Shown in pieces: positions 21,401 through 64,000 of a stretch of 64,000 nucleotides of DNA; position 1 is the first letter of the stretch, and each line of letters opens with the position of its first letter. The notes under the pieces are model-generated. The model was not told the origin of the DNA. It saw only the letters and a list, made by a program, of their open reading frames with translations, and did not search any database. This DNA is from Eledone cirrhosa. Taxonomy: Eukaryota. The translations under genes were made by a program, and so were the position numbers. The stretch spans positions 370,822,001-370,886,000 of the forward strand of contig OZ024743.1 of assembly GCA_964016885.1 (NCBI GenBank). Direction: 5' to 3'.

Positions 21401-23131
21401 CTGTCTATCTCGATCTCACAGATCACAAATATGTGGTCTGTGTAGTCGACTATTTTAAATTGTGGACAACTTATACTAGCCTTATCTAGTTCTCTGCAGA
21501 ATACCCTATCGAGATACGATCTGGATGACCCGATGCGGTTTGTCCATGTCCACATTGGCACATTCGGGTGATCCAGTCGATACCTGTCAGACAGTTCAAA
21601 ACGTCTGAGCAGGTTGGTGAGGCTCTTGCACCGTCCTCCCCTATCCACTAGCCCCACATGATCCCAGCATGCATCCAAGATACCGTTCCAGTCGCCCACT
21701 AACACTAAAGAGCGGGACGTGCCAAGAAAGGTCTCTAGACGTCTGAAGAAATCTGGCCGTCCTGCCCCTATTGGGGCGTAGACGGCTACTATCCTGAAAG
21801 CATTGCCTTCGCTGCCGGTCACGTCCAGCACCACCGACTTACTTTCTGGGTCTAGGAAGATGGCCCGTATCGCGAGATCCAAGCCTCTCCGAAAAAGGAC
21901 GGCAACCCCTCTCCCCGATCCTGGATGGCTGGGAGATGCGTATACATCGTAGCCGCCGAAGATCGGTGCGAAGGCTTGTGCTTCTTCGTTTGTTGCCTGC
22001 CCTGCTCTTGGTAGCAGCGGACCAGGTATTGGAAGGAGAGTGGTCTTCTTCGCCGTCTTCTGCGGGCAAAAGGCCCTGAGGTGACCCTTCGACCCACAGA
22101 GATAACATGTTGGCCGTCTTCCTTCTACACTTATAGAGAGTTGGAGTCCTTCCTCGATGTCTATAATATCGGGGATAGCGTTGATACATTCCTGGTCAGT
22201 TTGTATAAGCATTTGCATGCCTATACCTGACCAGTTCTCACTCCCTATTTTTCTACTTGCAGCATGGTCGTCCTGTTCTCGATTCCAGCAAGGACAGATG
22301 CGGCCAGCCAAGGTATGGGCACATCGGGAGGGACCTGGGTCACTTTGACCCTCACAACTTTAGTGTTTCCAAAGAGTGAGACTTTGCTTCCTGGGGGGTG
22401 GCGAAAAGTACGTCTACTGTGGTGTACTTTCTGCCTCGGGTGATGTGGGTTTTGCGTGCCCAGACGCACCCCAAGGCCTTTTGGATTTGAGCCTCCGTGG
22501 CTCTCTCCACCCGATGTGAGATTTTGCTTACGGTGCAGTAAGTCACCGTCCGTAGCTACTGGTCCTTGAAAAAATCGGGTGGAGGTTTCAGGGAGACTCT
22601 ATTTGCGCTTCTTGTCACCATGGCCCTTGCGACTGCCATCTCCTCCTCTGTGACTAACACTGTCTCGATATTTCGGGCGACACCTGCAAAAGAAGTGGTC
22701 CCTTTTTCAGCAGCACCACTATTGCTGCCGCTACTGGTCTTACTGGTAGTGCTGAGATCGCTATTACAGGTATCGGTGTCATTGTTGTTGTTTTCGTTGG
22801 TACAGTTGTTGGTGTTGTTGTTGTTGTTTTCATTGATACTGTTGCTGTTGTTACTGTTACTGTGGCTGTTGTTATTATTGTTGTTTTTGTTGATACTGTT
22901 CCTACTATTATTGTTGTGGCTGTTGTTATTGTCATTGTTATTGTCGTTCTCGACTTTACCGCTGTTATTTTTGTTGTTGCTGTTGTTATTGATGGTGTTG
23001 TTGTTGGTGGTATTGTTGGTATTGTTTGTGTTAGAAATATTTGTTAATTTTAAATCTGTAACAATCTTCTTTTCATTTGTAATATTTTCATTTATATTTA
23101 CCTCCGCTGGAATGCTGTCTTGTTGACATGC
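18422..23131 (-). mobile_element. Second Tx1-like LINE (different ORF1 variant), internally deleted
   Basis: Asn-rich ORF1 N-terminus; the knuckle CYLCGSKGHLRAFC is fused in frame to ORF2 EN (ORF 20551-22311); RT motifs; 3' end cccttgtggccaataaagaaatc(ATT)n; (TAA)n at both ends. Confidence 0.92.
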
Positions 23132-23149
23132 TGATAATAATAATAATAA

Positions 23150-25832
23150 ATTGTTGAAAAGCATGAGAGAAGTAAGAAGCATCATTCTATCTGGAAGGAG
23201 AGCAAAAAATATGCTACTGATCTCATGCTTGATACCCAGGCTGGACAGACTAAAGAAACTGATGCAACTGATGCTGCTAGGCACACAAAATCACTGGCAA
23301 AAGCAAAAGGGCAAGGATAATTAGCATCAAATTGGGAGCAGAAACCTCTGCATAGCAAATATGTGGCCTGTAGCAAACAAGCTGATGTTGACCAAAGGCA
23401 CACCCATCAGTGGCTACGTATTTTAGGGCTAAAGGCGGAGAGTGAAGGCTTCATCTTAGCTGCCCAAGATCAAAGCTTATTGACTCGTAATTACCAGGCC
23501 AAATGTGATGAGAAACGGAATAAATCCAAAGTACCGATTCTGCAATGCTGAGGTTGAAACAGTGGATCACTTAGTCTCTGGATGTAAAGTTTTAGCACCA
23601 GTAGAATACAAATATAGACATGACAGAGTTGGCCAATATCTACACTGGGTAATATGTCGGCATTACAAAATCAAAGCTGAAGACAAGTGGTACAACCATC
23701 ACCCTGAGGCTGTAACTAAGGAGAAGTAATAATTCTCTGGGACTTTCCTGTACATACTGACAGGACCATAAAAGCAAATAGACCTGACATCATTATAAAA
23801 GATCAACATAACAAGGTCTGTTTGTTGATAGATATGAGCATCCCATGTGATCACAATATCGCGGCAAAAGGATTTGACAAGCTACAAAAATATAAAGATC
23901 TCATCATCATCATGATCATCACCGTTTTACGTCCGTTCTTCCACGCTAGCATGGGTTAGACGGGTTGTCCTGTTGTGGGCAGTGTCTGGTCGGCTGACCA
24001 TGCCTTGCTCATACAGGAACTGATCTGGCTTGATTTCTACAGCTGGATGCCCTTCCTAACACCAACCTCATTTACAGTGAGTGCTGGGTGCTTTTTCGTG
24101 GCGCCTACACGTCCACTTTACAGTGTGGGCTGGGTGCTTTTTTGCCGTGGCACCTCCACGACCACCTTGCGGTGGGGGGGGGGAGGCATATTGTTTATAT
24201 GCTTCAGCATGTACCCATGGGAGGTCGGGTACCCTGTATTACTGCGTGACGCCAGAAGTCACGGTCGTGTGTCATTGTCTTTGAGAGGTGTAGTTGGGTA
24301 AGGTCGGCTTTTATCACCTCATCCCAAGTCATCTTGGGTCTCCCCACTCCGCGGTTTCCATCAACTTCTAGTGCTCTGCACCTTTTTATGCAGCTGTCAT
24401 CCTTCATACGCATCACATGTCCATACCAGCGTAACCGCCTCTCCTGCACGCAGCATTTGATTCCTCTTATGCTCAGTCTCTCTCTCAATTCCTTTATGCT
24501 TTGTCGTTCACGTATATTACTGTTACACATCCATCGGAGCATGCAGGCTTCGTTTCTCTCTAATCTACGTAAGTCTTCCACCTTCAGCGCCCAGGTCTCA
24601 CTACCATGCAACATCGCTGTTCGGATACACGCATCATACAGTCTGCCTTTCATTCTGAGGGAGAAGCCTTTTGCAGCTAGCAGTGGTAGTAGTTCCCTAA
24701 ACTTCTTCCATCCCGTTCTTACCCTAGTTATTGTACTTTCTGAGCACCCACCTCCGTTGCTAATTCGGTCACCTAGGTAGCAGAAGCTGTCTACTGTTTC
24801 TACAGGGCCCTCCCAGAGATTGGTGGTACTTGTTTCCTGTGGCTGTTTGCTTGCTGTTTCAGTACAGCTGCTGCATGTGAATCCTACATTCTTAATTAAG
24901 CTTCCTGAGATCCCGCTACATCTCTTGTGTACCCATTGTTTGCATTTGGGGCAGAGAATGGAGTTCCTACCTACACCTTTCCTACATACTGAGCAAGGCC
25001 ATTTCCCTGAGGGGATCTGGGTTCTGTTTTCTCGTCTACTTACAAGGACCTTAGTCTTTGTCATGTTGACTTTGAGGCCCTTTCTCTCTAGTCCCTGCTT
25101 CCAGGTTTGGAATTTATTCTCTAGTTCTACCATAGATTCAGCTATGAGTGCGAGGTCATCAGCATACAGGAGTTCCCATGGGCATCCGGTCTTAAACTCC
25201 TCCGTTATTGCCTGCAGGACTATGATGAACAGGAGAGGGCTAAGAACAGAGCCCTGGTGGACCCCAACCTGTACGCTAAATTCCTCGCTATACTCATTGC
25301 TAATCCTAACTTTGCTGACTGTTCCCCTATACATGGCTTGTACCGCTTTCACAAGCCATTCATCTACTCCTAGTTTTCTAAGAGCCCACCAGATTACTGC
25401 ACGTGGAACTCTGTCAAAGGCTTTCTCAAGGTCGACAAATGCCAAGTCGACAATCTGCTTATTGAAATTGAGAAAATGTGGCACCTCAAGGCCGTTACAA
25501 TACCAGTGACTGTGGGAGGACTGGGTATGATCAAGAAAGGAACAGAACAATATTTGTGAATGATTCCTGGTTTGCCCTCTCTGCACGAGGTGCAAAAAAT
25601 TGTTTTGACTGGTACTGCACACGTATTGAGAAGAGCACTATCTCTGTAAGATTGATATCCCTCCTTGTATTTACATATGCATATGCACATGTGTATATAT
25701 GTATACTGTTTTTTTTTATTATAATCAATGTGCTGTATTAACTGGCTTACCAATGCACACTGTGAATTTATTTGCCCTAGGTGTCACTCGGCATATATCT
25801 CAGAAACAATAATGAAACAATAATGAAAGAAA
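23150..25832 (+). mobile_element. 5'-truncated R4/Dong-like RLE LINE, split by an RTE insertion
   Basis: GLKAESEGFILAAQDQ, CCHC-like ETVDHLVSGC, RHD, RPD..LID nuclease motifs. KYKDL (to about 23903) resumes as LIEIEKMW after about 25455. Ends in gaaa(ATA)n. Confidence 0.88.
23901..25452 (-). mobile_element. Young 5'-truncated RTE LINE inserted in the Dong-like element
   Basis: Open RT C-terminal half (AFVDLEKAFDRV, HQGSVLSP, YADD, PHD-like finger, RRLRWYGHV); (GAT)n tail at about 23901-23920. Confidence 0.93.
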
Positions 25833-34680: not shown

Positions 34681-37362
34681 ATCATCATCATCATCATCAT
34701 CATCACTGTTTTACGTCCGTTGTCCTGTTGTGGGCAGTGTCCGGGCAGCTGACCATGCCTTGCTCATACAGGAACTGATTCTGGCTTGATTTCTACAGCT
34801 GGATGCCCTTCCTAACACCAACCTCATTTACAGTGAGTGCTGGGCGCTTTTTTTCCGTGGCGCCTACACGTCCACTTTACAGTGTGGGCTGGGTGCTTTT
34901 TTGCCGTGGCACCTCCACGACCACTTTACAGTGGGAGCATATTGTCTATATGCTTCAGTTTTGGCTTGTACCTGTGGGGGATCGGCTCTTCTGTATTACT
35001 GCGTGACGCCAGAGGTCTAGGTTGTGTGGCATTGCCTTTGAGAGGTGTAATTGAGTAAGGTCGGCTTTTATCACCTCATCCCAGGTCTTCATCACCTTTT
35101 TATGGAGCTGTCATCCTTCATACGCATCACATGTCCATACCAATGCAACCGCCTCTCCTGCACACAGCATTTGATTCCTCTTATGCTCAGTCTCTCTCTC
35201 AATTCATTTATGCTTTGCCGTTCGCGTATATTACTATTACACATCCATCAGAGCATGCAGGCTTCGTTTCTTTCTAATCTGCGCAAGTCTTCCACAGACA
35301 GCGCCCAGGTCTCACAACCATGTAACATTGCTGTTCGTATACGCACATCAGTCTGCCTTTCATTTTGAGGGAAAAGCCTTTTGCAGCTAGCAGTGGCAGT
35401 AGCTCCCTGAACTTCTTCCATCCCGTTCTTACCCTAGTTATTGTACTTTCCGAACACCCACCTCCGCTGCTAATTCAGTCACCTAGGTAGCAGAAGCTGT
35501 CTACTGTTTCTATAGAGCCCTCCCAGAGTTTGGTGGTACTTGTTTCCTGTGACTATTTGCTGCTTGCTGTCCCAACACAACTGCTACATCACATGTAGCC
35601 GACATTCTTAGTTAAGCTTCCTAAGATCCCGCTACATCTCTTGTGTACCCATTGTTTGCATTTGGGGCAGAGAATGGAGTTCCTACCTACACCTTTCCTA
35701 CATACTGAGCAAGGCCATTTCTCTGGGGGGATCTGGGTTTTGTTTTCTCATCTACTTACAAAGACCCTAGTCTTTGTCAGGTTGACCCCGAGACCCTTTC
35801 TCTCTAGTCCCTGCTTCCAAGTTTAGAATTTCTTCTCTAGTTCTACCATAGATTCAGCTATAAGTGCGAGGTCATCTGCATACAGGAGTTCCCATAGGCA
35901 TCCGGTCTTAAACTCCTCCATTATTGCCTCCAGAAGTATGATGAACAGGAGAGGGCTAAGAACAGAGCCCTCGTGGACACCGACCTGTACATTAAATTCC
36001 TCGCTATAGTCATTGCTAATCCTAACTTTGCTGACTGCTCCCCTACACATGGCTTGTACAGCTTTCACAAGCCATTCATCTACACCTTGTTTTCTAAGAG
36101 CCCACCAGATTATAGCACAGGGAACTCTGTTAAAGGCTTTCTCGAGATCGACAAATGCCAGGTAGAGCGGCTTACTTTTAGCTAGGTACTTTTCCTGTAA
36201 CTGCCTCACAAGGAAGAGGGTATCAGTGGTGCCTCTTCCTGGTACAAACCCAAATTGCATCTCCTTTAGTTTCACCTGGTCCCTAATCAACTGTGCTATA
36301 ACTCTTTCTGTTACTTTCATGACCTGGTCCATCAGATTTATACCTCTATAGTTTCCTCCATCTAGTGCTACTGCACCAATCCTTTGGTATGACACTTTCT
36401 AGTATTACCTGGTTAACAATATACGTATGGTTATGGTGTGACCTACCGACCCAGATGCCTTCAGCATCTCGGCAGCTATACCCGATGGACCGGTTGCCTT
36501 CCCCGTCTTCATATCTTTGATTGCCTTACTTACTATGCTGCTACTGACTTGTACTGCTGGCCCCTCTATAGGGTCTACTTGGGGTAGGGTCTCTTCCGAT
36601 GCATTCTTCTCATTTAGTAATCTATCATAATAGCTCTTCCACGCATCTTTCTTCTCAGCACTTGTGAGGGCAAACTCACCTTTATCACTCCGGATACACT
36701 TCTCTCTAATGACATCACAATTCTCTCTGACACACTGCCTCACAATCTTGAACACCTCCTGTTTCTGGTCCTCACGTTACAAAACATGCTTGAATTTTCT
36801 ATCCTCTGCTTCCCTCCTAGCTAAGTATACTTGTCGCCTAGCTTCCCTCCAAGTGTCTCTATGTAATGTACCCTGCTTCCCCCGTTCTTCCATTCTTTCC
36901 ATGCCTGTCTCTTGGCCTTAACTGCTTCATCTACCTTATTGTTCCACCACCAAGTCACTCTCCTCCTGCCTGTGGTTTTACTCCAGCCACAGATCTCATC
37001 CGTCGCCTTTAGTAAGTTATTTTTTAGGAACTCCCAGTGCTCTTCTACATTGAATATCTCTATCTGTTCTTCTTTACTGTCATAGGCATTGAGTAAAATA
37101 TCTTTAAATCTGTTACTGGCTGAGGGGTCTTTCAGCTTCCAGATCTTTCTTCTCCAGGTTGGCTTCTGTTTCCAGGTTCGTCTAGTTCTGACCGTGAGGT
37201 CGCTGATAACTAAGCAATGTTGGGAGGTACATTCCTCACTAGGGAAGACTTTTGTGTTTACGACCGTCCATCTGTCACGTCCTCTGATGAGGATAAAATC
37301 TATCTGACTAGAATGCTCCCCTGATCTATAGGTGATCATGTGGTTGTCGGGTTTTTTGATAT
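34681..37362 (-). mobile_element. 5'-truncated RTE LINE
   Basis: (GAT)n tail, 3' UTR and EN C-terminus through RT (QFGFVPGRGTTD, YADD). Confidence 0.92.
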
Positions 37363-38988
37363 GGGTATAAATGCAGTAGAAATGGTTGGAAAGGAAGAGT
37401 TTAACCAAGGAGCAGAAGAGAAAACTATAAGATCTAAGAATGAGAATGCATGGTCAGTTTGAGAGAAATATACAAGATATCATGAATAAAACAACATCAT
37501 GGACATGTCTTAAGCAAGGAGATTTGAAATGTGCCACTGAAGGCCTTATAGTTGCAGCACAAGACCAAGCTCTTGCTACCAATTGGAAGAAGTATAACTT
37601 CTACAAAACTTCTGACACTCAGAAATGCAGGATCTGTGGAAGGAATGTGAAAAGTGTGGCCTTCTTGGTAAGTGGATGTGAGAGCCTTGCACGAAAAGAA
37701 TACAAGTGCTGCCATAATAAAATCTGTCTATACTTTCATTGGCTTCTGTGCCATAAATACCAATATAAAGTCATAGAGAATTGGTATGAACATGTGTCTT
37801 ATAAAGTAATGCAGGAGGATGGGAAAGCAATGATATTCTGGGATTATGAGTTTCAAATTGATAGAATCATTAAGGGTCCCCAACATTGAACAAGAAAGAC
37901 AAATTCTGTCAGATCATCAATGTGCCCATACCACTTACTTGTGAGTAAGGAGATTGAAAAAAAATCACCAAGTACTCTGAATTGAAAGTGGAACTGGCAA
38001 GACTATTTGGAATGCAAGAGGATAATGTGAAAGTGATACCAGTTGTGATTGGAGTATTAGGATCAATCCCATTAAAAATTCAAGACTTCTTAAAGTGACT
38101 ATACAAGTTGGGTGTCATACAAAAGGTGGCTTTGCTAGGTACTGTGCCCATTTTGAGGAAAGTATGATCTGTCCTTGTTGCAGCTTGTCAAATGACTAAA
38201 CACCCTGGTGCATTATACATCTGCACTGCATGACAACAACAAAAACCCAAACCTATTTCTATTCATTTAACATTAGCAAATAGTTATGACAATAGCAAGC
38301 TTATAAAGAGAATAAAGAACTAAAACAAACATTTAGTTTAACGAAAAATTTGAAATGAAATAATAAAAAAACAGATAAATAAATAAACAATTAATCCAAC
38401 TTGAAATACTTCATTTTTGTTTTGTTCTTTCCATTTTATTTTTTCATTTTCTTATTTAATAAAAAAAAAAAAAAAAAACTTTCATTGAATGTTATTGTGA
38501 AAATTTTTCAGGAAAAAAGTTATCCTCAAAAAAATAAATTTATAAAAACTGAAAATTTAATTCCAGTTGAATGCCATTTTATTTCGTTCATTTTCTTAAA
38601 TACATCACTTATTTCAATTTAAAGCTTTACCTTGATGTACTTATACAAACACACACACATCATCCCCATTTTACAACTATTCTCCATGTTTGCATGGATT
38701 AGACAGGTCATCAGGTTCTGAAACTAAATAGGTCAGATGACTGTATCTCACTCATATGTTCTATTCTGGCATAGTTTCTACAATGGGATGCCCTTCTTGA
38801 TGCCAACTACTTCATGACGTGTTGGGTGCTTTTTATCATAGCACTATTACAACCAACTGAAAGGGTGGACTGGGTGCATTTTATTTTTGGCACCAGCACT
38901 CCCACATTTCAACACTAGAGCACTTCCCTGGAACCATAAAAGAGTACTGATCCTATAATTCTGTGAGTGATGGTGCCAATGCAACTCA

Positions 38989-39094
38989 TTTAATTACAGA
39001 TGATACCTCACCAAATCATCAGAATACTGATCTGCTAGTACTAGCACACAGATCAGTATTCTGATGATTTGGTCAGGCATCAACTGTAATTAAA
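38989..39094. repeat. Inverted repeat, ~46-bp arms with a 14-nt spacer
   Basis: taattacaga...atcatcagaatactgatctg / cagatcagtattctgatgat...ctgtaatta. Confidence 0.9.
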
Positions 39095-39208
39095 AGTGAC
39101 ATAGCTTCTGGCGATTAGTGATATTTAGACACACCGGACTAACAAAACAATTGTTAATACTTTAAATAAACCCTATTGTACAGTCGGCCATGTTATTCTT
39201 CACTCATT

Positions 39209-39242
<34 letters not shown>

Positions 39243-39286
39243 CATTGTGTAGTTTGCTGGAAGCATTGTTGAATAGGAAACACAAA

Positions 39287-39542
39287 TTTAAATAATTCTG
39301 AAAACCATACAATGCATTAGAAAGAAAATCAAGATTGCTAAGATTACAAAGAATCTTATCTGAGCAAATTTGATAATCCCCTGCTCTCTAAACAAACAAG
39401 TCAACTCCGATCGATCTTTTAAGTCCCTCAGGGTTACTCCCTTGATAATGGGATATCAAATTTGCTAAGGTAAGATTCTTTGTTATCTTTGCAATCTTGA
39501 TTTTGTTTCTAATACATTGTATGGTTTTCAAAATTATTTAAA
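39287..39542. repeat. Inverted repeat, ~93-bp arms with a ~69-nt spacer
   Basis: 39287-39380 is the reverse complement of 39450-39542, with scattered mismatches. Confidence 0.9.
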
Positions 39543-39830
39543 GATATATATATATATATAAACGGTAAAAATGAAACGAAACTTCATTTCTCACTCTTAG
39601 TACGGCTGTTACTTAAATATAAGTATGTATACGTACATACATATATGTATACAGATGTACAGTAGTATGTATATATATATATATACATACATGCACACAT
39701 ATATATATGTACGTATGGATTCACCGAACATTTATTATAATGCTCGGTGTGTTTGTAAACAAACATCCCGAATTAAGCCGTACAGTGTCTAGCAACCATC
39801 GTTGCTCATTTGTTCAACACTGACAAAGGA

Positions 39831-39873
39831 ACGCTGTACTAGTTTCAAGCTTATTAGCTATCGTCAGCAACGT
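39831..39873 (-). ncRNA. Minimal type I hammerhead ribozyme motif (copy 1, sense to the MTMR pre-mRNA)
   Basis: acgttg-CTGACGA-tagctaataagctt-GAAA-CTAG-TA^cagcgt on the minus strand. Confidence 0.75.
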
Positions 39874-39915
39874 ACACCTTCCTGCCAGATGGTTGGACGT
39901 CTTGCAGGAAGGTAT

Positions 39916-39958
39916 ACGTTGCTGACGATAGCTAATAAGCTTGAAACTAGTACAGCGT
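39916..39958 (+). ncRNA. Minimal type I hammerhead ribozyme motif (copy 2)
   Basis: Stem I acgttg/cagcgt; core CUGACGA and GAAA; stem II agct/agct; palindromic stem III ACUAGU; predicted cleavage GUA^ after 39952. Confidence 0.78.
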
Positions 39959-40348
39959 TCCTTTGTCAGTGTTGAACAAATGAGCAACGATGGTTGCTAG
40001 ACACTGTACGGCTTAATTCGGGATGTTTGTTTACAAACACACCGAGCATTATAATAAATGTTCGGTGAATCCATACGTACATATATATATATGTGTGAAT
40101 GTATGTATATATATATATACATACTACTGTACGTCTGTATACATATATGTATGTACGTATACATACTTATATTTAAGTAACAGCCGTACTAAGAGTGAGA
40201 AATGACATTTCGTTTAATTTTTTCCTTTTATCGTTTTCGGTACCCCGGCCGATTAACTCACTCGATATGCAAATTAGGCTGCTCAGCCGTTAATATGTAT
40301 AAGGAAAGTATATACTTTCAGACGTTCAACCATCTGGCAGGAAAGTAT

Positions 40349-40391
40349 ACGTTGCTGACGATAGCTAATAAGCTTGAAACTAGTACAGCGT
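40349..40391 (+). ncRNA. Minimal type I hammerhead ribozyme motif (copy 3)
   Basis: Identical 43-nt motif. Confidence 0.78.
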
Positions 40392-40683
40392 TCCTTTGTC
40401 AGTGTTGAACAAATGAGCAACGATGGTTGCTAGACACTGTACGGCTTAATTTGGGATGTTTGTTTACAAACACACCGAGCATTATAATAAATGTTCGGTG
40501 AATCCATACGTACATATATATATGTGTGCATGTATGTATATATATATATACACATACTACTGTACGTCTGTATACATATATGTATGTACATATACATACT
40601 TATATTTATATATATATATATATATATACATACAATCGTCGTCATTTAACGTCCATCTTCCACGCTAGCATGGGTTATATATA

Positions 40684-41153
40684 CTACCAGAAAAACCACC
40701 CTTCGGGTGGTTTTCTGCTAGCATGTTGATATTATACGCAAATATACATGGATGTAGATATGATACATCAAATAAAATCGTAATTGACATTATCCCCAGA
40801 AATTGAATGAAGTCTGCGTTAGACTCTCTTATGTAATCAGTAAAGTAATCCATGATACATTAAAAAAAGATGATATTATATATAAACTGCATTAGGAAAA
40901 AAATTAGTGACGGAAATATATGAATGTTTATTTAAGCGATCGCTAACCGGAAGTGTTGACATTTAAAAATTTTAAAGAAGTGAATCTTTAAATAAGCAAT
41001 AAAATATATTTAATCAAGAGTTACAAAATTTAGTAGATAAATTATGTAATATATCATTCATTATTTATTCAAAGTAATCCAACTTATTTTACAAACGGGA
41101 TAAAAAAATATATTCTGGACGCAATCCCACACTCTTTCTTTATTATAGTTAGA
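40684..41153 (-). mobile_element. Non-autonomous Helitron
   Basis: Minus-strand 5' end TCTAACTATAATAAAG; 3' hairpin agaaaaccaccc-GAA-gggtggtttttct followed by GTAG|T (a variant of CTAG). Confidence 0.65.
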
Positions 41154-42174
41154 CTAGCAGAATGGCCCAGCATTGCTCGGATGTAAACATAGATTGGCAT
41201 GTTTATCCCTCCGTTCTGAAACAGTACAGAGAAGTACGGAATACCTCGGGATGGTGTCTACATTTTGTGCTTATGAAAAAAATTTGTCGTAGATTACAAG
41301 GGTTTTTTTTCCATGCGAAGAAAATCAATACTATATCGCGAAAAAAATACTTTTGTTTATATTTTGTTATTGTGTATGCAAAAATATCTGTACACGAATA
41401 TATAATTATATATATATAGTATAAAAAAACGAAAAATCAGTGATGCATCTGGACTCAGTTTATTGCGTGTTACAATTGTTTTGCCGGCAGGTAGCTCGAG
41501 TGATAAAATTTGCTCCGAACGAAGTGCCTGTGTCCGAAGGAACCTGCAGCCGTAGAATCAGCCAGATCCATACAGTGATCATGTCTCGAGCTACCTGCCG
41601 GCGAAACAATTGTAACATGCAATAAACTGAGTCCAGATGCATCACTGATTTTTCGTTTTTTTATACTATTCACACTCTGCTCTGTATGAATATTGAGTGC
41701 TAATTTTGGCATACCGCCTACGGAAGCACCATAGCTACCATTATACACACGTATATATATATTAAAATAACAGATTAAAGTTTAAGCAAAGAATCGCTGC
41801 TTTCACCCTTAACGGGATCTTCTGAAACGGAAGTAAATATTTCGAAAAACGTTACACACACTATATATATATACACACATATAGCGCCATAATGTCGTAA
41901 TGCAGACAGCCAGACATAGAGACAGATATTATAAGGGTGCAACGTTATATTTATGTATCTATCTAAAAAGAAAGACTAAGAATTATAGAGAGAGATCGCT
42001 AAATCGCCTAATGCGGTCCCTGAGGGCATTGAAAATTTGAAATATTTTTTGCTCAAAACACTCACAGGACCATAAGTATCATATGTTTAAAGTTTAAAAA
42101 CAATCGGTTGGGTGGTTCTCGAGTTTTAGGGAGTCAGACAGACAGACAGACATTCTCTGTCTTAGATATATAGA
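41154..42174 (-). mobile_element. Non-autonomous Helitron (Lep1/HINE-like architecture) with an internal 85-bp inverted repeat
   Basis: A|TCTATATATCT 5' end followed by (TGTC)n; 3' ccgagcaatgctggg hairpin plus CTAG|T; no TSD. Confidence 0.8.
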
Positions 42175-42895
42175 TATATATATAGTTTATGTGATTTAGT
42201 GAATTACTGGTGGTGGTACCAAAATGAGCACTCGGTGCACATGCAGAGTGTATATATTAAGAAAATGATGATATTTTGTTTACATTTAATTTTTTTTTTA
42301 TTGTATATCAACCTGTTATGTGGGTTTGGGAGAGGATTGGCTCAAGGTCACCCAGAGAAGTTATGAACCTGACACCATTATCAATCTGCTTTTCAGATTG
42401 GTGATTCAGCAAAAAAATATGTTGAATCACCAGTCTGAAGAACAGATTGATAATGGAGTTGGGTGTATAACTTCTATGGGTGACCCTGTGAAACACGTGT
42501 AACATATCGATACACAATAACAAACTAAATACATGTAAATAAAACTTCATCGTTTTTCTTAATAAATATAGAAAGTTCCCTCTCCAAGGCACCAGTCTGG
42601 GCAAGGTTGTTTATGGAAGACCAGCAGTCATTTAGGCATACCAGTCTCCCCTCGCCATCAATGTCAACAATATATATTCTCTTATCACTGCTACCTGCTG
42701 AAACTGCTGAGAATACATAGTATTCTGAAAGGTATACATCAACTGATTAATCTAATTTGCATACCAAGCGATTTTACAGCCGCCTTTACCAAAGATTAAG
42801 GACAAAATTTGTTTTCACTGGAATAAAAGGATGACATCAGTTATCTAGAAAACACACATGCTGTTATGAGGCTGTTTGCTTGCAAACGAGCTGAA

Positions 42896-44013: not shown

Positions 44014-47000
44014 TCATCATCATCATCATCGTTTAACATCTATCTTCCATGCTAGCATGGGTTTAGATGGGAATTGTCCCACTTGAGGCAAGATTGGTCA
44101 TCTCGTTCGTATGGGACTGTCTGGCAAGTTTTCTACGGCTGGATGCCCTTCCTAACACCCACCATGTTTACAGTGTGGACTGGGAGGTTTTTACCGTGTT
44201 ACCTACATGGCCACATTACACGATATTGTGTGTTTTTTTTTCTTGTCGTGACACCTACACGACCTCATTTATTTAGAACTGGATGTTGTGGTACCAACAT
44301 AAGTTTAAAGAGAAAGGGGTGGTGTTGATGGGGGTGGGGGAGTTGGGGGTAGTGGGAGAGGTGTATATTTGATTAAGAGGTGCCTACTGATTGTAGGTTT
44401 CGCTTTGTACTTAGGCAAGGTAGGTTTTCTGTATTAATGCGTGGCGCCAAAAATCTTGGTCCAGTGACATTGTCTTAGAGAGGTGTAAGTGTGTAAGGTC
44501 GGAATTTATCAAATCATCCCAGGTTTTTCTGGCTTTGCCTACTCCGTAACTTCCGTCAATTTTGATCGCCCTGCACTTTTTTATACAGCTGTCGTCTTTC
44601 ATGCACATCACGTGACCATACCAACGTAGTCTTCTCTCGAGTAAACAGCATCTGATCCCTCTTATACCTAATTTCTCAGTTCATTTATGCTTTGCTGTTC
44701 ATGTGTATCACTATTACACATCCAGCAGAGCATGCATACTTCGTTCCTCTGCAGTCTGCGGAGATCCTCTGCACACAATGTCCATGTCTCGCTGCCATGT
44801 AACATAGCTGTTCGTATGCAAGCCTTTCATTTTTAGAGAGAAATCTTTAGCGGCCAATAGTGGTATAAGCTCTCTGAACTTTTTCCATCCCATTCTAACT
44901 CTGGCTACTGTACTTTCTGAGCACCCTCCACCACTGCTGATTTTGTCACCCAGGTAACGGAAGGTGTCCACTATTTCTATAGAGCCATCGGGGCAATAGA
45001 AGGAGCTAGTATCCTGTGGGCGCTTGCTACTTATTGCACCTGAGCACCAGCCACATATAAAATCTATGTTCTTAGATAGCTGACCTGTGATCCCACTACA
45101 TCTTTTATGCACCCATACTTTGCATTTGGGACATAAAATGGAATTTCTGCCTACACACTGAGCATGGCCATTTCCCAGAGGGGAACCGTGCCCTATTTTC
45201 CTCCCATCATACTAGAACTTTAGTCTTAGACAAGTTAACTTTAAGGCCTTTTGATTCTAGGCCATGCTTCCATGTTTGGAATTTCTTCTCTAGTTCAGCC
45301 ATCGATTCAGCTAGGAGCGTTAGATCGTCTGCATAGAGAAGCTCCCATGAGCAGCCGGTCTTGAACTCCTCTGTTATGGCCTGAAGGGCAATAATAAATA
45401 GGAAGGGGCTAAGGACACAGCCCTGATGGACCACAACTTTTACGCTAAATTCTTCACTATATTCGTTGTTAATTCTAACCTTGCTGACTGTTTCTTTATA
45501 CATGCCTTGTCTCGCTCTCACAAGCCATTCATCTACACCTAGTTTTCTAAGAGCCCACCAGATAATGCAGCAGGGGAATCTGTCAAAGGCTTTCTCCAAG
45601 TCAACAAAAGCTAAGTAGAGGGGTTTACTTTTAGCTAGGTACTTCTCCTGTAGTTGTCGTACAAGGAAAAGGGCGTCTGTGGTACTTTTATCTGACACAA
45701 ACCCAAACTGCATTTCGTCTAGATCAATTTGCTCACTGATTAGTTGCGCAATAACTTTTTCTATGACCTTCATGACCTGGTCAATTAATTTAATGCCTCT
45801 ATAGTTTCCTCTATCTAGTGCATCTCCTTTACCCTTGTAGCAGTTAATGATGATGCTGCTACGCCAGTTTTTTGGTATGACCCCGTTCTGTATGACTTGG
45901 TTTACTATCCGTGTGACCATAGTGTGTCCCACCGTTCCAGATGCTTTCAGCATTTCAACAACTATTTCCGAAGGCCCAGCTGCCTTGCCTGTCTTCATAT
46001 CTTTGATTGCCTTACTTATTATACTACCTTCAACTTGCACTGCTGGTCCCCCTATTGGATCAATGTGGGGCAGACTATCTTTGTCCCATTTTTTTCTCCT
46101 TATTTAGTAGCCCCTTGTAGTGACACTTCCAAGCGACCTTCTTATCAGCGTCAGTGATGGCAAGTACACCATCATTATTACGGACACACTTCTCCCCGAC
46201 AATATCATGGTTTTCCTTGACACATTGTCTAGCAATCCTGAACACCTCAGGTTTTTGGTCCTCGCATTACTTGAACTTTCTTTCCTCTGCTGCCCTTCTT
46301 GCAAAGTACACTTATCTCCTAGCTTCCCTCCTGGCCACTTGATAGTCTTCTCTACTTCCCCCATCCCGCCATACTTTCCAAGCCAGCTTTTTGGCCTTGA
46401 TTGACTCTTCCACCTTACTGTTCCACCACCAAGTTACTCTCCTCCTGCCTATAGGTCTGCTCCAGTCACAGATTTCATCTGTCTCCTTCAGCAGGTTAAC
46501 TTTCAGGAATTCCCACTGTTCCTCTATATTGTAAAACTCTAATTGCTCTTCCTTACTGTCAAAAGCATCAAGTAATATGCTTTTAAATTTGTCACTGACT
46601 GTGGGGTTCTTTAACTTCCATATTCTTCTCCTTAGGGTAATCCTCCTCTGTTGTTGAGTACGTCTCGTCCTGACTATGAGGTCACTGACTATGAGGCTAT
46701 GTTAGGAGGTGTATTCTTCATGGGGGAGGGATTTAGTGTTTACAACAGACACTCTATCACGTCTTCTGGTAAGGATATAATCTATCTGACTGGTGTGTTC
46801 CCCTGATCTATAGGTGATCAAGTGATTGTCTCGTTTTTTTAAGTTTGTGTTACAGATAGTTAGGTTATTTGCATCACAGAATTTCAGGATTCTGGAGCCT
46901 TCCTCATTTCTAGTACCAAACCCATAGCCTCCATGGATTCCGTCATAGCCGTCACAATGTTGTCCAATATGACCATTTAGATCGCCAGCAATAATTATGT

Positions 47001-48364
47001 AGTCACTGTAGGTTATGTAGGTTATTTGGGAGGTAGTGAGCATTAACGACTCATAGAATCTGTCTTTTATAACGCCAGGCAGTCCGGATTGGGGTGCATA
47101 TGCAGATATTATTGTCACAGTAGTTCTATTTAGGACAAGTCTTATTTTAATTATTCTGTCATTCACTCCATTTACGTCTATTATCCTATCTACCCATTTT
47201 TCTGCTAGCATGATTCCTACTCCACCCAGCCCATTGTCATTTCCCACCCAGAAAAGTTTATAGCATCGTTTTTTACCCACAATGAATCTAGCAGACCCAC
47301 CCCTCCACCTGGTCTCTTGAATACAGCAAATATCAACTTCCTTACGTTCAAGCATCTCTACAACCTCGTTAGAGCGACCTTTTAAGGTGCCTACATTCAT
47401 GGTACCAACTCTGAAGTTTTGGATTGCGTTTGGTGGGTGGAAAGGATGAGGCGCAGGGAGGGGTGTGGGAGATGGGGTTATGTTAGCCATCCGCGGCCGA
47501 AATAAAGAAGAGTCCTTGCATTCTCGTCCGGCAACATGAGGTGAATTTATCTTTATCTTTGGCATTGTCATTGAGTGTCCAGATTTTTCAGACTCTCCAG
47601 AATTCCATAGTCCATCTAGCATATCGAAAAGCAACCAGGTCTAAAGAGTGATAGCCGAGGCGGTGGTTTTGTGAAAGAAATTGGTAGGAGAAACATATTA
47701 TAAGCCGCTGAATTATGATTAGACCAAATAATAATGGTGGCGAGTAGGGGCGGGGGGAGTTAGCGAGAAGGTTATTTTATAGTATAATCCTAGAAATTCT
47801 GCCATAATTAAACGAGCATATAACAGTAATAAGAGTTTAAATACAAGTAGAAGATTGTTTTCGAAGGTCTGACAGAATTATGAGATTTTAAAATACAAGA
47901 AGATTGTTTTGAACAATCAGACAGAATTATCGAATAACGTTGAAAAGAAAAGATTAGATTCTAAGTTAAGCAGACAATATAATACTGATAGGTGAATGGA
48001 CTAGGAACATGGAGAGACAAGAAAAATAGGATGAATACATTACATTTCACAAAAGCGAGCGAGCGGGCGATTCAGCCAAGAATAAGGGATCGACAAATTC
48101 TGAGATTCGTAGCTCACAACAAGGTTATTTTATATTTGGAGAGAGGGGGAGGGGGTGAGGGAGAACCTGCAGGCGTATATACGATATATGGGGGGAGGGG
48201 GTAGAGAAGAGAAGGGAGTAGGAAGAAGTTTCGAGAAGGTTATTTTATAATATAATCCTAGAAATTCTGCCATAATTAAACGACCATATAAAGGTAATAA
48301 GAGTTTAAATACAAGTAGAAGATTGTTTTCGAGGGTCTGACAGAATTATGGGATTTTAAAATAC
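44014..48364 (-). mobile_element. Near full-length RTE LINE (single EN-RT ORF, several disablements) with a repeated 5' region
   Basis: APE (GTMNVGTL, CIQETRW, SAYAPQ, GDLNGH), RT (YADD), PHD-like finger and (GAT)n tail. 47764-47896 is repeated at 48232-48364. Confidence 0.9.
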
Positions 48365-54170: not shown

Positions 54171-54745
54171 CTTTTAAAATGGTAGGGTATTATATTAGGG
54201 ACATATGACTGCTATTACTAGCAAGTCAAGTAACTACATAAATGCTCCTTTGCTTGAAAATAAAGTTAACTCTTTTGCCCTAAACTAGCTATGGTTCTAT
54301 GAAACAAAAACACCTAATTTAAAGGGGTTTTTTTTAAATTAAAATCTTCCCAAACTAATTTAGAACCTTTTGATAAGTTATTTTGCAAATACCATATTAA
54401 CAATCAAATAATTAATAATTTTAGTAAATCAGTCCAAATTCTTCATTGTGTATTGCATTAGAAATATGGTAATGAAAGGGTTAACTCCTAATGTGCCAAA
54501 CACTCAACACAGTATCTTTTAAAATTTACACAATTGATTTAATACAGCATGAAACCCTGTTAGCAAAACATTCTTGAAAAATACAAAACAACACTATGAC
54601 TGATCACATTAAAAATTGAAGTATTTACTCCAATATTGCAAATGTTTACACTGATCACCCTAGTAGTAAAGATACTATAAACATTTGAATTAACAAACTT
54701 GCAGAGTTAACTGGTGATGACATAAACCAAAAGATTACAACTTAC

Positions 54746-54862
54746 CCATGTTTCCTTTTTTCGAACATTGTCCACAAAAATCAAGTGGGTTGCTGTTAAA
54801 TGTAAAGTGCCTTCTGATGACTTGCGAGGATTGACACGATCCAACCATTTGACATTCTCGAC
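54746..54862 (-). CDS. MTMR6: Myotubularin-related protein (MTMR6/7/8 group), internal coding exon (probably exon 2; start of PH-GRAM domain)
   Basis: 117 bp between ttcaAG and GTaag, phase 0/0. Encodes VENVKWLDRVNPRKSSEGTLHLTATHLIFVDNVRKKETW, matching the MTMR6/7/8 N-terminus (VEQVKLLDR...GTLYLTATHL.F...KETW). The symbol denotes the group; invertebrates usually have one co-ortholog. Confidence 0.93.
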
Positions 54863-55229
54863 CTTGAAATAATGCAAGTAAATAAGAAAAAAATAAGCAA
54901 ACAACTATTTCAACTGGTCCAAAATTCGCATGAAATTTTTTTGGTCCAATAATACCAAATTACCTAATATAGCCTATTCATATTAAAATAAGAATATCAA
55001 CACAAATCTCATTATTTCGTCTATGATAACACACAACTATATAAACAATTGTTAGATTTATTTTGACAATTTTTATCACAAAATTTTGCCCTCTGAATTT
55101 TTAAAGATTTTTTTCCACATTGCAATTTGAAACTTTGCTGATACTGTTTACGCCTTTAAAAAAAAATGTATACTAGCTCCACATTCCTGAGTAGCAATTC
55201 TGAATTTGAAGGATCTGTGAAAGAAGAGG

Positions 55230-55819: not shown

Positions 55820-57300
55820 GTGTGGCATCATCTAGGTGTATCAAACGTTGAAAAGAGCTGTGATGTTCTGAACAATGTGGTCTATACCGAGAGCAAAGAG
55901 GAGGCGGCTCAAAGGGTCACCCTGTTGAACCCCAGGGGCTGAAGGTATGATTGTGTCAGCAGCAAAGAGCATGCTCAGGGCCCCATATGAGAGGTAGGTC
56001 AGCGGGCAGGCAGAGGGGGCCCAGCTGAGGCAGGCCTCGAGCACGTGGTCATGGTGTAGACAATTAAAAGCATTCCTCATGTCAAGCTTGACAATGAGGT
56101 GCCTGGTGTCCCTCGACGCCAGTCCCAGTGGGCAGCTATTGAAGAACTGCTGAGCTGCATGTGTGGGCCCCTCACACCCACCGGACATGCCGACCCCTAG
56201 TTGCAATGGGCTGAGGTCCTCACCAAGTTCAGTGATGGGACATATGCCACTCTCTTTCTTCCTGAGAGCAGCCAGGCTGGCCAAGAAGAAGAGGCCTCCA
56301 GTGTAAGGGTCCAGGGCGCCATGGATAAACCTGTTGATGAGTTCCACAATTGCACTCAGAAGGCAATGCTTGGCTTCGGCTGATAGGGCGGATAGCAACA
56401 CTTTGAAGTCGCCAGGTAGGAAACCGTCAGTACCTTCGCTGCTGCTGGCAGGGAAGGACTTAATGGCAGCCATGATGTCTGTGTCTGATGCCACAAAGAG
56501 CAGGTGAGGATCAAATGTGAGTATGGGTCTGAGGGCAGCTCAGGATGCTTGAGCTGAATAGCAGCTAGGACCTCCTCGGTGGGGTAGATGGCGGTGTCCT
56601 TGGAGGCAACCACTCTGACCATGGCCAAGACATCATCCTTGATCTTGATTAATTTGGAGTTTACGCGGTCGCCTATACACTTTGTGTTGGCCTCAGTGGT
56701 GGAGGATTGAGGCCACCTGAGAGCAGAGGGTATGTTGTCCTTGGGCAAACCTGGGATGGGCACTTGCCCAAAGGAACAAAATTTGGCCTTGACAAAAGCT
56801 GCTGTTGACAGGCTGTCTCGGTCAGCGCCAGAATTGGGGAGGCTGAGGACGAGTGGAGCGAAATAGAAGAGGCACTCCCAGTCGCTGGCTCGATTGGAGT
56901 CCAGGGCCCTCTTGTTTGAGGATGCTATGGCGTCGACCACCAGCACCTGGGCTGCTCTTGGGATCTTGAGCGGAATCTTCCGGAGCCGCCTAAACTGAGC
57001 GATGTTGACCAGCGATGCTTCAGCATCAAGCAAGCTCACTGTCTCATTTGGTGGTGTAGTGGACAGCTGCAGCTGTGCAGACGAGAGGAAGAGACAGTTG
57101 TTGCATCTCCATGCTGTGAGGGCACTGAAGACACAAGCGTCACGCCAACACAAGAAAGGTAGTGGAAACAGCCGCACCCTGAATTATTCTGGCCTTTCTT
57201 TCACCTGTTCATAGTTGTGCATGCACTGCAGATGTTGCTCAGTGGGGCATGGAGCCGAGGACTGGAGCACTATGTGGCAATATGGGTGGGTGGAGGGGAG
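55820..57300 (-). mobile_element. CRE-clade non-LTR retrotransposon fragment
   Basis: LRKKESGICPI, PLQLGVG..GGCE..H, KLDMRNAFN, GVQQGDPL..LLF, then a frameshifted YLDD at about 55830; GC-rich island. Confidence 0.78.
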
Positions 57301-58640: not shown

Positions 58641-58769
58641 TACAGAATAAATAAATTTTAGTTTAAACTAGCAGAATGGCCAGGCGTTACTCAGGATTTG
58701 CTCTAGGGTTCTTATATATTTATCCTTATTGAGCCTCGTGAAATAAATACGTTTATATATATATATTAA

Positions 58770-60160
58770 ATAACCAATGCTTAGCACGCAATATTGTCTA
58801 CCGATGTACAATAAATTCCGGAACCAACAAATGGTATTACGTCGGATGTACCGCAACATCTTTCAAAGCTCGCCTATACCAACATCAATCTTCGATCAAG
58901 CATGAGAAAATGCGCTCCGTAACAACCCTTGCCGATAAAGCCTGGCAGCTTCGGAAGAACAATCAAGCATTCTCCCTTTATTGGCAAATTATTACAGTTG
59001 CGCCAGCATATAAGCAAAATCACCGATTTTGTAAATTATGCAATATGGAGATATACTGCATTTTAACGTCGGAAAACAAACTTTTGAACAGCAAAATTTA
59101 ACGTTCCCTTTACTGTAACCATCGTTTAAAAACGACTTTTTCTTTTTTTAAATGCATATAATGTTATCTTTTTACACCACCATTTGCAAATTTTTATTTT
59201 TATTTTTATTTCATATTTTTATATGTTTATACATTTTTATATGACTTTTTATAATAATAGCACTAAACACTGTTTTTTAGACCCCCTTTTAGAAATATCC
59301 TGCTACTATAATAGCCCCAATAACTTGTCTATAATTCTGTACTACATTGACCCATTTAACTAAATGTTGTCCAAACTACACCACTAGAAGAATTTACTTC
59401 CCCCGCCAACCCTAACACGCCTCATTTAGCTAACTGCTGCCAAAACATTTTCTCCTATACAATCTCTACTACTCTGACAGTCTTGAATCCTAAGACTACC
59501 TCCCCCTTACTCACTTCCCTCTTCCTCTTCCCTTCCTACCTCCTACTTTCTCACATATCATTTTTCATTTCATTTCATTTTACGTCCGCTTTTCCCTGCT
59601 TGCAAGGGTAGGACGGGAACTGATGCTGGCTTGATTTCTACAGCGGGATGCCCTTCCTAACACCAACCTCATTTACAGTGAGTGCTGGGTGCTTTTTTGC
59701 CGTGGCACGACCACTTTGCAGTGGAATGATAGGGACCCCAGTCCCTATCATCTCATTTCTACAGCTGAGTAAACTGGAGCAATGTGAAATAAAGTGTCTT
59801 GCTCAAGGAAACAACACATCACCCGGTCTGAGAATTGAACTCACAACCTTTCGATTGCAAGGCCAATGCTCTAACCACTAAGCCATGTGCCTCCTATAAA
59901 ATATTCTCCTATCATTTTACCATAAAGGTCTGATGACATGGTGTGTTCTCTTACAGTGTACCTATGATTTATGATAATATTTTTATATTATACAAATAGC
60001 GAGGTATAGGTAACCCACACACTATAGAAACAATTGTTACCTAATATATTCTTTATACCCGCATTTCCATTTCATAAACTTCTTCTTCATATTTTCTCAG
60101 GATTTTAAAGCATATTTTATTATACGTTGAGCAATCTCCGACGTCGGTTGACTCCATCCA
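58770..60160 (+). mobile_element. Penelope-like element 3' remnant: GIY-YIG endonuclease plus 3' region with a hammerhead, interrupted by RTE and SINE fragments (59575-59893)
   Basis: Translation QCLARNIVYRC...YYVGCTATSFKARLYQH...W.L...W.I...CKLCNME...LLNS*..CNHR fits a PLE GIY-YIG domain with a C-terminal CxLC/CxH signature. Confidence 0.8.
59926..60042 (+). ncRNA. Type I hammerhead ribozyme motif with a ~90-nt stem II
   Basis: aggt-CTGATGA-[59937-60026]-GAAAC-AATT-GTT^acct; stem I aggt/acct; palindromic stem III AACAATTGTT. Confidence 0.7.
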
Positions 60161-63300: not shown

Positions 63301-63586
63301 AGTTAAGTTATTTGCGTCGCAGAATTCCAGGATTCTGGAGCCTTCCTCATTTCTAGTACCGAACCCATAGCCTCCATGGATTCCGTCATAGCCGTCACAA
63401 TGCTGTCCAACGTGACCATTTAGGTCGCCTGCAATAACTATATAGTCACTGTCGGTTATTTGGGAGGTAGCGAGCATCAGTGTCTCGTAGAATCTGTCTT
63501 TTATAGCACCGGGCAGTCCGGATTGTGGTGCGTACGCAGATATTACTGTCACCGTAGTTTTATTGAGGACAAGTCTTATTTTAATT
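60302..63586 (-). mobile_element. Young 5'-truncated RTE LINE inserted in a (TA)n tract
   Basis: EN-RT frame open for about 765 codons to a single TAG at 61291-61293, then continues in frame to 60814; (GAT)n tail; TA-rich tracts on both flanks. Confidence 0.95.
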
Positions 63587-64000
63587 ATATATATAAATAT
63601 ATATATATATATAAATATATATATGTATATAAATATATGCAAAAGTTATATTTAAAATTGTTGGGTTACAACGAGTAAATATTTTATAACTGATATAAAA
63701 GCACTCAACAGTTTCTGGAGTAGGTTTACGATATTAAACAAATGGAAACTATATTTATAAAACCATATTTATTTCGTTATATATATTTCTGGGATATCAT
63801 GTTAAAAATATGGTATGCCTTCCTCAGACAAAATACAATACATAAGCTGTTTTATAAATAATTTTGATATACCTTAATAATGCAACTTCCATTTAAAAAG
63901 TTGATTTGGTAGTGAAACTGTTATGACAGTTATATAGAAAGAAAAACGAAGATGAAAAGAAGAAGATGAAGAGATGTATGTAAATAAAAAAAGAAGAAGA

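What the first reader, a model, noticed from the sequence alone, without database searches (positions are those of the whole stretch)
39574..40610. Three identical minimal hammerhead ribozymes in a fold-back Penelope-like unit inside the MTMR intron
Seen: the 43-nt motif acgttg-CUGACGA-uagcu-aaua-agcuu-GAAA-CUAG-UA^cagcgu occurs at 39831-39873 (-), 39916-39958 (+) and 40349-40391 (+). Stem I extends further through aagg/ccuu. Copy 3 also contains the reverse complement of the palindrome's loop, so copy 2 looks like a snap-back of copy 1. Known: Penelope-like elements and retrozymes carry minimal type I hammerheads with a palindromic stem III that cleave as dimers. Inference: the two + copies, 433 nt apart, could dimerise and excise a ~430-nt RNA, possibly circular. 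The base of stem II is U-U rather than the usual G-C, so the motif is either a variant or inactive.
Basis: partly seen in the sequence, partly recalled or inferred. Interest (0 to 1): 0.8.

Follow-up and report, generated by a model that had tools for sequence, protein, structure and literature searches.

The report
Octopus hammerhead retrozyme, Penelope-style insertion
This is one of thousands of copies of a small, protein-free jumping element in an octopus genome; it carries a hammerhead ribozyme motif that likely cuts its own RNA, and its ends bear the marks of having likely been pasted in by a Penelope-type retrotransposon's enzyme, so it is a new member of a known class.

Summary
The three identical 43-nt motifs are real. 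They belong to one two-armed insertion of a 433-nt non-coding repeat with 27,161 core matches in this genome (control 0). The ribozyme is a canonical type I hammerhead (6-bp stem I with bulge, 4-bp stem II with hexaloop, palindromic stem III), not the minimal Penelope type. U·U at the base of stem II is family-wide (25,721 of 27,161), recurs in a second family, and is published in an active axolotl retrozyme (PMC7229834). Stems covary across three families. The element is a non-LTR retrozyme with Penelope insertion marks: (TA)n target, head-to-head arms, and a 56-nt tail on exactly one arm (25 of 25 classifiable insertions). The host MTMR6/7/8-like gene runs on the minus strand; in either read-through direction the fold-back is predicted to mask the ribozymes needed for a dimer, so circle excision from this locus is unlikely though plausible for head-to-tail arrays. 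No RNA data; no autonomous partner identified. New member of a known kind; the strict tail rule is the useful lead.

The parts
39544..39559 (.). left (TA)n target tract
   Evidence: sequence; 43 of 49 terminal ends in 38 loci run into (TA)n
39558..39613 (-). 56-nt 3' tail ending the left arm (unit positions 1-56), with a short hairpin
   Evidence: L001 = window; hairpin z -2.0, 7 of 200 shuffles as stable
39614..39902 (-). left, inverted arm: unit positions 145-433
39823..39885 (-). hammerhead copy 1 (extended); predicted cut between 39837 and 39836; change in the stem I bulge at 39875; the only copy in sense in the host pre-mRNA
39900..39902 (.). head-to-head junction of the two arms, 3-nt overlap
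   Evidence: L001
39900..40607 (+). right arm: 5'-truncated unit (positions 158-433) followed by one full 433-nt unit; ends without tail
39904..39966 (+). hammerhead copy 2 (extended, no change at conserved columns): stem I 39916-21/39953-58, core 39922-28, U·U 39929/39942, stem II 39930-41, GAAA 39943-46, palindrome ACUAGU 39946-51, predicted cut after 39952
40176..40231 (+). internal copy of the tail sequence (hairpin decayed)
40232..40336 (+). spacer present once in this insertion up to 40319; holds octamer ATGCAAAT at 40267-40274, kept in sister family B; possible promoter (inference, untested)
40337..40399 (+). hammerhead copy 3 (extended); predicted cut after 40385; change in distal stem I at 40344
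   Evidence: (Rfam HH9 18.9 bits, E 0.0097, below gathering 52)
40608..40628 (.). right (TA)n target tract
54743..54865 (-). host MTMR6/7/8-like exon upstream of the intron (aa 9-49 of P0001)
   Evidence: 97.6% identity
9712..9873 (-). host MTMR6/7/8-like exon downstream of the intron (aa 49-101)

Best explanation
The region is one two-armed insertion of a high-copy, non-coding 433-nt repeat that carries a canonical type I hammerhead motif (a non-LTR retrozyme), likely inserted into a (TA)n tract by a Penelope-like element's reverse transcriptase and endonuclease acting in trans. Inferred cycle for the family: head-to-tail arrays are transcribed, the hammerheads cut (better as dimers through the ACUAGU palindrome), unit-length RNA is likely circularised, and the Penelope protein nicks both target strands and primes cDNA at two fixed RNA sites 56 nt apart, one per strand; the two cDNAs, each able to run past one unit, are joined head to head. 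This copy is a slowly decaying passenger in a host intron; when read through it is predicted to form a ~330-bp double-stranded hairpin that masks the ribozyme instead of releasing a circle.
For: Shown: copy number; dispersed head-to-tail arrays and inverted arms; no conserved reading frame in the unit and no PLE ORF continuous with a unit at the 5 junctions read; 43 of 49 terminal ends at one of two sites, then (TA)n; 35 of 59 flank-selected loci two-armed, and 25 of the 25 with both ends classifiable have one tail end and one tail-less end, none tail/tail or body/body; same in 10 of 10 classifiable family C insertions and the one two-armed family B array; hammerhead pairs covary, 12 of 17 pairs changed on both sides in 14 hand-picked copies; families A and B are 63% identical over the unit yet keep the core; RT/GIY-YIG-type ORFs of 647-760 aa with their own hammerheads lie in the same genome. 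Literature: tail on one arm, inverted 5'-truncated copy and (TA)n bias are PLE marks (PMC8557442, PMC3846280 passages); PLE protein cuts and extends both strands and starts at two RNA sites that bound the tail (PMC11167929, parts 1-2 of 4); U·U retrozyme ribozyme cleaves, better as dimer, and gives circles (PMC7229834, parts 3-4 of 6).
Against: No RNA evidence for transcription, cleavage or circles was obtained. No autonomous PLE sharing this unit's end sequence was found; those examined (L053-L100) carry other hammerheads and another tail. The hammerhead region folds no better than shuffles (z -0.41, 0.42, -0.16), and in the 39900-40420 construct the double-hammerhead fold lies 5.5 kcal/mol above the minimum. 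Rfam HH9 score is only 18.9 bits. In a 2026 preprint 8 of 9 predicted Xenopus retrozyme dimers did not cleave in vitro (10.64898/2026.07.22.740005). Arm 5' ends show no excess at the cleavage site (1 of 70, 1 of 38), so the genome holds no trace of cut linear templates; this fits circular or uncut templates equally. Covariation rests on few independent, family-level events.
Confidence: 0.8

Rival explanations
1. The unit is a detached pseudo-LTR of an autonomous Penelope element; the copies are 5'-truncated insertions or local tandem expansions made from linear, uncut RNA, and no circular RNA is involved.
For: All end marks are PLE marks. In PMC11167929 ribozyme mutants did not affect insertion in vitro and no reads ended at the cut site. 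No 5'-end excess at the cut site. The 2026 preprint finds retrozymes related to pLTRs.
Against: No ORF-bearing element with this repeat in the loci examined; arrays of up to 14 full units, 12 of 12 identical across both arms in one case, with insertion-specific variants, need a template that regenerates multimers; canonical rather than minimal ribozyme.
Confidence: 0.12
2. The U·U motif is a catalytically dead relic that spreads as a passenger; only the 3' end signals matter for copying.
For: G10.1-C11.1 is highly conserved in PLE ribozymes (PMC4209133); low Rfam score (18.9 vs 38.6 bits for the G-C sister); weak folding z-scores; C·A also occurs in a sub-lineage.
Against: Core kept across families 63% identical, with compensatory changes in stems I and II; U·U present in a second family with different stems; active U·U precedent in axolotl; core departs 18 of 726 vs flank 444 of 8778, p = 0.001, though confounded by subfamily sites and CpG.
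Confidence: 0.15
3. One reading: this locus itself releases a 433-nt circle through a dimer of copies 2 and 3.
For: Both cores are intact; a nested double hammerhead can be built at -154.8 against -160.3 kcal/mol in the isolated 39900-40420 construct.
Against: Host gene is on the other strand; + read-through pairs copy 2 with copy 1; a start inside the spacer would include only copy 3; copy 3 has a distal stem I change.
Confidence: 0.08
4. The inverted arm arises by self-priming or template switching of one cDNA (fold-back), not by a second priming on RNA.
For: Short overlaps at many junctions; self-priming on an antisense template was proposed for PLEs in PMC3846280; units on the two arms are identical in young arrays.
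Against: Each arm holds sequence the other lacks in this locus; the one-tail rule needs two distinct start sites; both-strand extension is shown in vitro (PMC11167929).
Confidence: 0.25

Closest known systems
Metazoan non-LTR retrozymes (Cervera and de la Pena 2020, PMC7229834), above all axolotl Rtz353 / HHR_Amex2 and mussel retrozymes
   Same: Non-coding tandem repeats with one canonical type I hammerhead per unit, thousands of copies, low GC, short palindromic helix III; HHR_Amex2 also has U·U at the base of helix II.
   Different: Unit 433 nt (above the ~170-400 nt given there); expression and circles untested here; tail, (TA)n target and two-armed insertions are not described in the parts of that paper I read (its supplement could not be read).
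Endonuclease-bearing Penelope-like elements and their pLTRs (PMC8557442, PMC3846280, PMC11167929)
   Same: Inverted 5'-truncated copy, optional tail on one end, microsatellite target, partial tandems, type I hammerhead near the 3' end.
   Different: No ORF; ribozyme is canonical, not minimal; tail 56 nt against the 30-40 bp cited; no shared end sequence with the autonomous elements examined.
Xenopus retrozymes as PLE derivatives (bioRxiv 10.64898/2026.07.22.740005)
   Same: Same conclusion that retrozymes depend on PLEs.
   Different: That work rests on co-occurrence and pLTR homology in vertebrates, insects and a coral; here the evidence is the insertion signature, in a cephalopod.
Minimal PLE hammerheads (PMC4209133)
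   Same: Type I topology, palindrome at 15.2-16.2, predicted dimer action.
   Different: Helix lengths, no extra base after A9, loop 1 and loop 2 conserved, U·U in place of G10.1-C11.1.

Membership tests
Type I hammerhead ribozyme | Core CUGANGA / GAAA / UH in type I order | tested here: met
   62 of 69 flank-selected ungapped copies keep it
Type I hammerhead ribozyme | Helices I-III supported by covariation | tested here: met
   stem I 5 of 6 and stem II 4 of 5 pairs changed on both sides; helix III pairs never vary, palindrome changes ACUAGU to ACGCGU in family C
Type I hammerhead ribozyme | G10.1-C11.1 pair (usual, not obligatory) | tested here: not met
   U·U in 25,721 of 27,161; an active U·U case is published (PMC7229834)
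Type I hammerhead ribozyme | Rfam gathering score | tested here: not met
   HH9 18.9 bits vs 52; the G-C sister also misses it at 38.6; no hammerhead hit in the 4.5-kb scan
Type I hammerhead ribozyme | Site-specific self-cleavage | not testable with these tools
   needs in vitro transcription
Minimal PLE hammerhead (min-HHR) | Helix I 4-5 bp, helix II 7-8 bp, extra base between A9 and 10.1 | tested here: not met
   6-bp helix I, 14-nt stem II region collinear without gap with the G-C sister
Non-LTR retrozyme | Tandem non-coding units of a few hundred nt, one type I hammerhead each | tested here: met
Non-LTR retrozyme | High copy number, dispersed, no encoded RT | tested here: met
   no ORF of 120 aa over the element
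Non-LTR retrozyme | Expressed as unit-length linear and circular RNA | not testable with these tools
   no RNA holder listed
Autonomous Penelope-like element | ORF with RT and GIY-YIG endonuclease between pLTRs | tested here: not met
   none in the element; none continuous with a unit at the junctions read
PLE-mobilised element | Tail on one end, inverted 5'-truncated arm, microsatellite target | tested here: met
PLE-mobilised element | An autonomous partner with the same end sequence | tested here: inconclusive
   not found among L053-L100 and neighbours; only a few of the genome's PLE families were sampled (54,315 first-look candidates, 150 scored)

The most novel reading that the evidence does not exclude
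Octopus retrozymes record how ribozyme circles get into genomes: two Penelope reverse transcriptases load on one circular RNA at two fixed sites (34, 56 or about 68 nt apart in three families), each primes one end of a cut (TA)n target, and both roll around the circle, giving head-to-head multimer arms with exactly one tail. This would be direct genomic evidence for rolling-circle twin priming, linking retrozyme mobility to PLE machinery and explaining the PLE tail.
Probability: 0.4. Interest if true: 0.65.

Novelty: new member of a known kind. Interest (0 to 1): 0.38.

Why it matters
The locus itself is an ordinary copy. The family matters in three ways. (1) How animal retrozymes move has been argued from co-occurrence and pLTR similarity; here three families show the Penelope end signature directly, with a strict one-tail-per-insertion rule that gives defined templates for the existing in vitro PLE system. 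(2) The genome offers natural U·U, C·A, C-G, A-U and G-C versions of the same hammerhead position for a clean activity comparison. (3) Over half of the sampled insertions are fold-backs, so thousands of intronic hairpins are expected; these are candidate substrates for A-to-I editing or small-RNA silencing in a lineage known (recalled, not checked here) for heavy RNA editing. I found no paper on cephalopod retrozymes; the library lacks most subscription journals and repeat databases, so the families may already be catalogued.

Tried and rejected
Rfam scan of 38000-42500 gave only hairpin and microsatellite artefacts (83 matches, none at gathering, no hammerhead). Expression: no RNA holder listed; the four runs laid are contigs of unrecorded kind from one study and show neither ends nor strand. 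Family look-up PF26215 was not in the library. The endonuclease fragment beside units in L031 turned out to be a separate truncated element in opposite orientation; its family has a different hammerhead. PLE fragments next to units in L011, L015, L037, L039 are separated by (TA)n or other repeats; those flagged in 7 of 59 further loci were not read. A 67-codon frame through the spacer and ribozyme, seen by eye, is not kept in the L031 copies and was dropped. A spliceosomal intron ending at stem I, as in Drosophila virilis Penelope, could not be tested without RNA. Test for cut linear templates: no excess of arm 5' ends at the cut site (1 of 70, about 1 expected; 1 of 38). One 'body/body' call (L026) is a script error: one search shows a partial tail at that end; I left it out of the rule and report it here. 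Pfam and PDB do not recognise the long PLE-like ORFs; their assignment rests on the Atlas look-alikes, a GIY-YIG Pfam hit on a homologous remnant and recalled motifs; the clade name Neptune/Nematis is recalled, not tested. Earlier findings of the scan: nothing. PMC5785218 is not held; the supplement of PMC7229834 could not be read and bioRxiv supplements are closed; either may list cephalopod motifs.

Full report
Observation. The three 43-nt motifs are identical and lie where stated. They sit in a 332-nt inverted repeat and a 276-nt direct repeat with 433-nt spacing. With the unit numbered from 40176, the insertion reads: (TA)n, tail (1-56, minus), positions 145-433 (minus), a 3-nt overlap at 39900-39902, positions 158-433 (plus), a full unit (plus), (TA)n. 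Over the 63-nt extended ribozyme only copy 2 is unchanged at the conserved columns; copy 1 differs at 39875 and copy 3 at 40344.

Host. A myotubularin profile finds exons on the minus strand at the left edge of the window and beyond it. One exon is 99% identical to a protein that NCBI names Octopus bimaculoides myotubularin-related protein 8, and that protein maps exons to 54865-54743 and 9873-9712, minus strand. The element is therefore in a 45-kb intron of an MTMR6/7/8-like gene of an octopus, and only copy 1 is in sense in the pre-mRNA.

Family. A DNA search gave 150 candidates, 40 scored, 96-100% identical for the full-length matches. The core pattern with free positions 7, 10.1, loop, 11.1 and 17 has 27,161 matches against 0 for the control; 25,721 of them have U·U. 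Freeing stem II gives 40,375 matches (control 9) and reveals family B: 466-nt units, same 14-nt stem II region, G10.1-C11.1, 63% identical to this unit over its length. Family C (310 nt, palindrome ACGCGU, U·U or A-U) has 18,550 matches. Among 170 motifs in my loci the 10.1/11.1 letters were U·U 141, G-C 22, C·A 6, C-G 1 (not a random sample).

Ribozyme. Fourteen hand-picked natural copies of the three families align without gaps. Of 17 pairs, 12 change on both sides, and 0 of 500 shuffles reach that; slid partners give 1-3. The rows are related, so this reflects a few family-level events. In the first 100 of 12,141 copies chosen by their flanks, the fourth pair of stem I is U·G, G·U, A-U or C-G in 96 by my count by eye. 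Loop 2 (UAAYRA) and the stem I bulge are conserved, as in canonical type I ribozymes; the minimal PLE type described in PMC4209133 (parts 1-2 of 4 read) has other helix lengths and an extra base. Rfam HH9 matches copy 3 at 18.9 bits, E 0.0097 and family B at 38.6 bits, both below gathering. In 66 copies anchored downstream, core columns depart in 18 of 726 cells and flanks in 444 of 8778 (Fisher p 0.001); flanks include subfamily sites, indels and CpG, so this is weak. Folding z-scores are not significant. PMC7229834 (passages and parts 3-4 of 6) reports axolotl HHR_Amex2 with a U·U mismatch at the base of helix II, 22% cleavage as monomer, more as dimer, and circular RNA in tissues. Activity here is therefore likely but untested; the 2026 preprint (parts 1-3 of 5) saw cleavage in only 1 of 9 Xenopus dimers.

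Insertion signature. In 38 loci, 43 of 49 terminal ends lie at one of two sites 56 nt apart and run into (TA)n. I drew 59 loci, one per insertion, from the first 100 listed of 2,592 matches to a 24-mer downstream of the ribozyme (three are segmental duplicates). The script called 35 two-armed; 25 had both ends classifiable, and all 25 had one tail end and one tail-less end; 10 had a damaged or cut-off end. In the first 28 loci the count was 14 tail/body, 4 unclassifiable and 1 body/body that one search shows to be a parsing error. In family C, 10 of 10 classifiable two-armed insertions follow the rule with a 34-nt tail (16 loci, chosen by me as arrays, so the share that is two-armed is not informative), as does the one two-armed B array. 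In six young C arrays the units on both arms are identical or nearly so (12 of 12, 11 of 12, 9 of 9, 13 of 14, 6 of 6, 6 of 6), while 14 of 15 pairs of insertions differ by 0.3-1.3%. For family A, median identity was 0.993 within an arm, 0.972 between arms and 0.842 between insertions, subfamilies mixed. Arm 5' ends are spread over the unit with no excess at the cut site. PMC8557442 and PMC3846280 (passages) describe the inverted copy, the tail often on one end only, and (TA)n bias as PLE features; PMC11167929 shows both target strands extended and two RT start sites that bound the tail.

Partner. The genome holds many RT and GIY-YIG-type elements, with open frames up to 760 aa, their own hammerheads and (TA)n ends; the Atlas places one among GIY-YIG / HTH_animal proteins. 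None examined shares this unit's ends, and fragments beside units are separate insertions where read. The partner is unidentified.

This locus. In the isolated 39900-40420 construct a nested double hammerhead is 5.5 kcal/mol above the minimum fold. With the left arm included, copy 2 pairs fully with copy 1 (stem probabilities 0.0; 74.7 kcal/mol to free it) and copy 3 is left alone. On the host's strand copy 1 is likewise masked. A start in the spacer would include only copy 3. So the predicted product of read-through is a long hairpin, not a circle. A simple snap-back does not explain the arms, since each holds sequence that the other lacks.

Shown versus inferred. Shown: motifs, copy number, U·U as family norm, covariation, architecture, tail rule, host strand. 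Inferred: cleavage, dimer action, circles, PLE mobilisation, two primings on one template, promoter in the spacer, hairpin editing.

Comparison and verdict. It works like, and meets the testable features of, a metazoan non-LTR retrozyme; it fails the tests for a minimal PLE hammerhead and for an autonomous PLE. Searches (listings) found the class, the U·U variant and the PLE link in print, but no paper on cephalopod retrozymes or on a tail rule in retrozymes; unread supplements and unheld journals may hold them. Also seen: passages of PMC11300833, PMC2837043 and PMC11722881, none decisive. New member of a known kind; interest 0.38, carried by the insertion signature more than by the motif.

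Noticed in passing
L088:5021-5083, L089, L106-L115 (G000:C1:5738326-5752444): Sister retrozyme family B, 466-nt units, canonical G10.1-C11.1, arrays of about 30 units; shares the octamer ATGCAAAT and a tail hairpin with this family.
   Followed up: partly
L037:4429-4491, L203-L218: Retrozyme family C, 310-nt units, 18,550 core matches, very young two-armed arrays with identical units; best material for mechanism work.
   Followed up: partly
L081-L097: Autonomous-type PLE family (RT, linker with cysteines, GIY-YIG-like end) with an AU-rich hammerhead with long stem II about 1 kb downstream of the ORF; several further hammerhead families appear in the same loci.
   Followed up: partly
window 58766-59050 (+): GIY-YIG endonuclease remnant of another PLE family (Pfam PF01541, 23.8 bits, over cut-off).
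   Followed up: partly
window 40267-40274: Octamer ATGCAAAT about 80 nt upstream of the ribozyme core, conserved between families 63% identical; possible promoter element.
   Followed up: no
window 38989-39094, 39287-39542, 41416-41669, 42343-42488: Four further short inverted-repeat elements (arms 46-89 nt, 84-98% complementary) around the insertion; the intron is rich in fold-backs.
   Followed up: no
window 13899-16246, 20551-25637, 35823-36398, 44714-47640, 55841-56539, 61291-63645 (all -): Several LINE-type fragments (AP endonuclease, RT, some with a PHD-like finger after the RT), all scanned ones on the host gene's strand.
   Followed up: no
L116-L118, L033-L036: Sub-lineage with C·A or C-G at the base of stem II and a GUU cleavage triplet.
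   Followed up: partly
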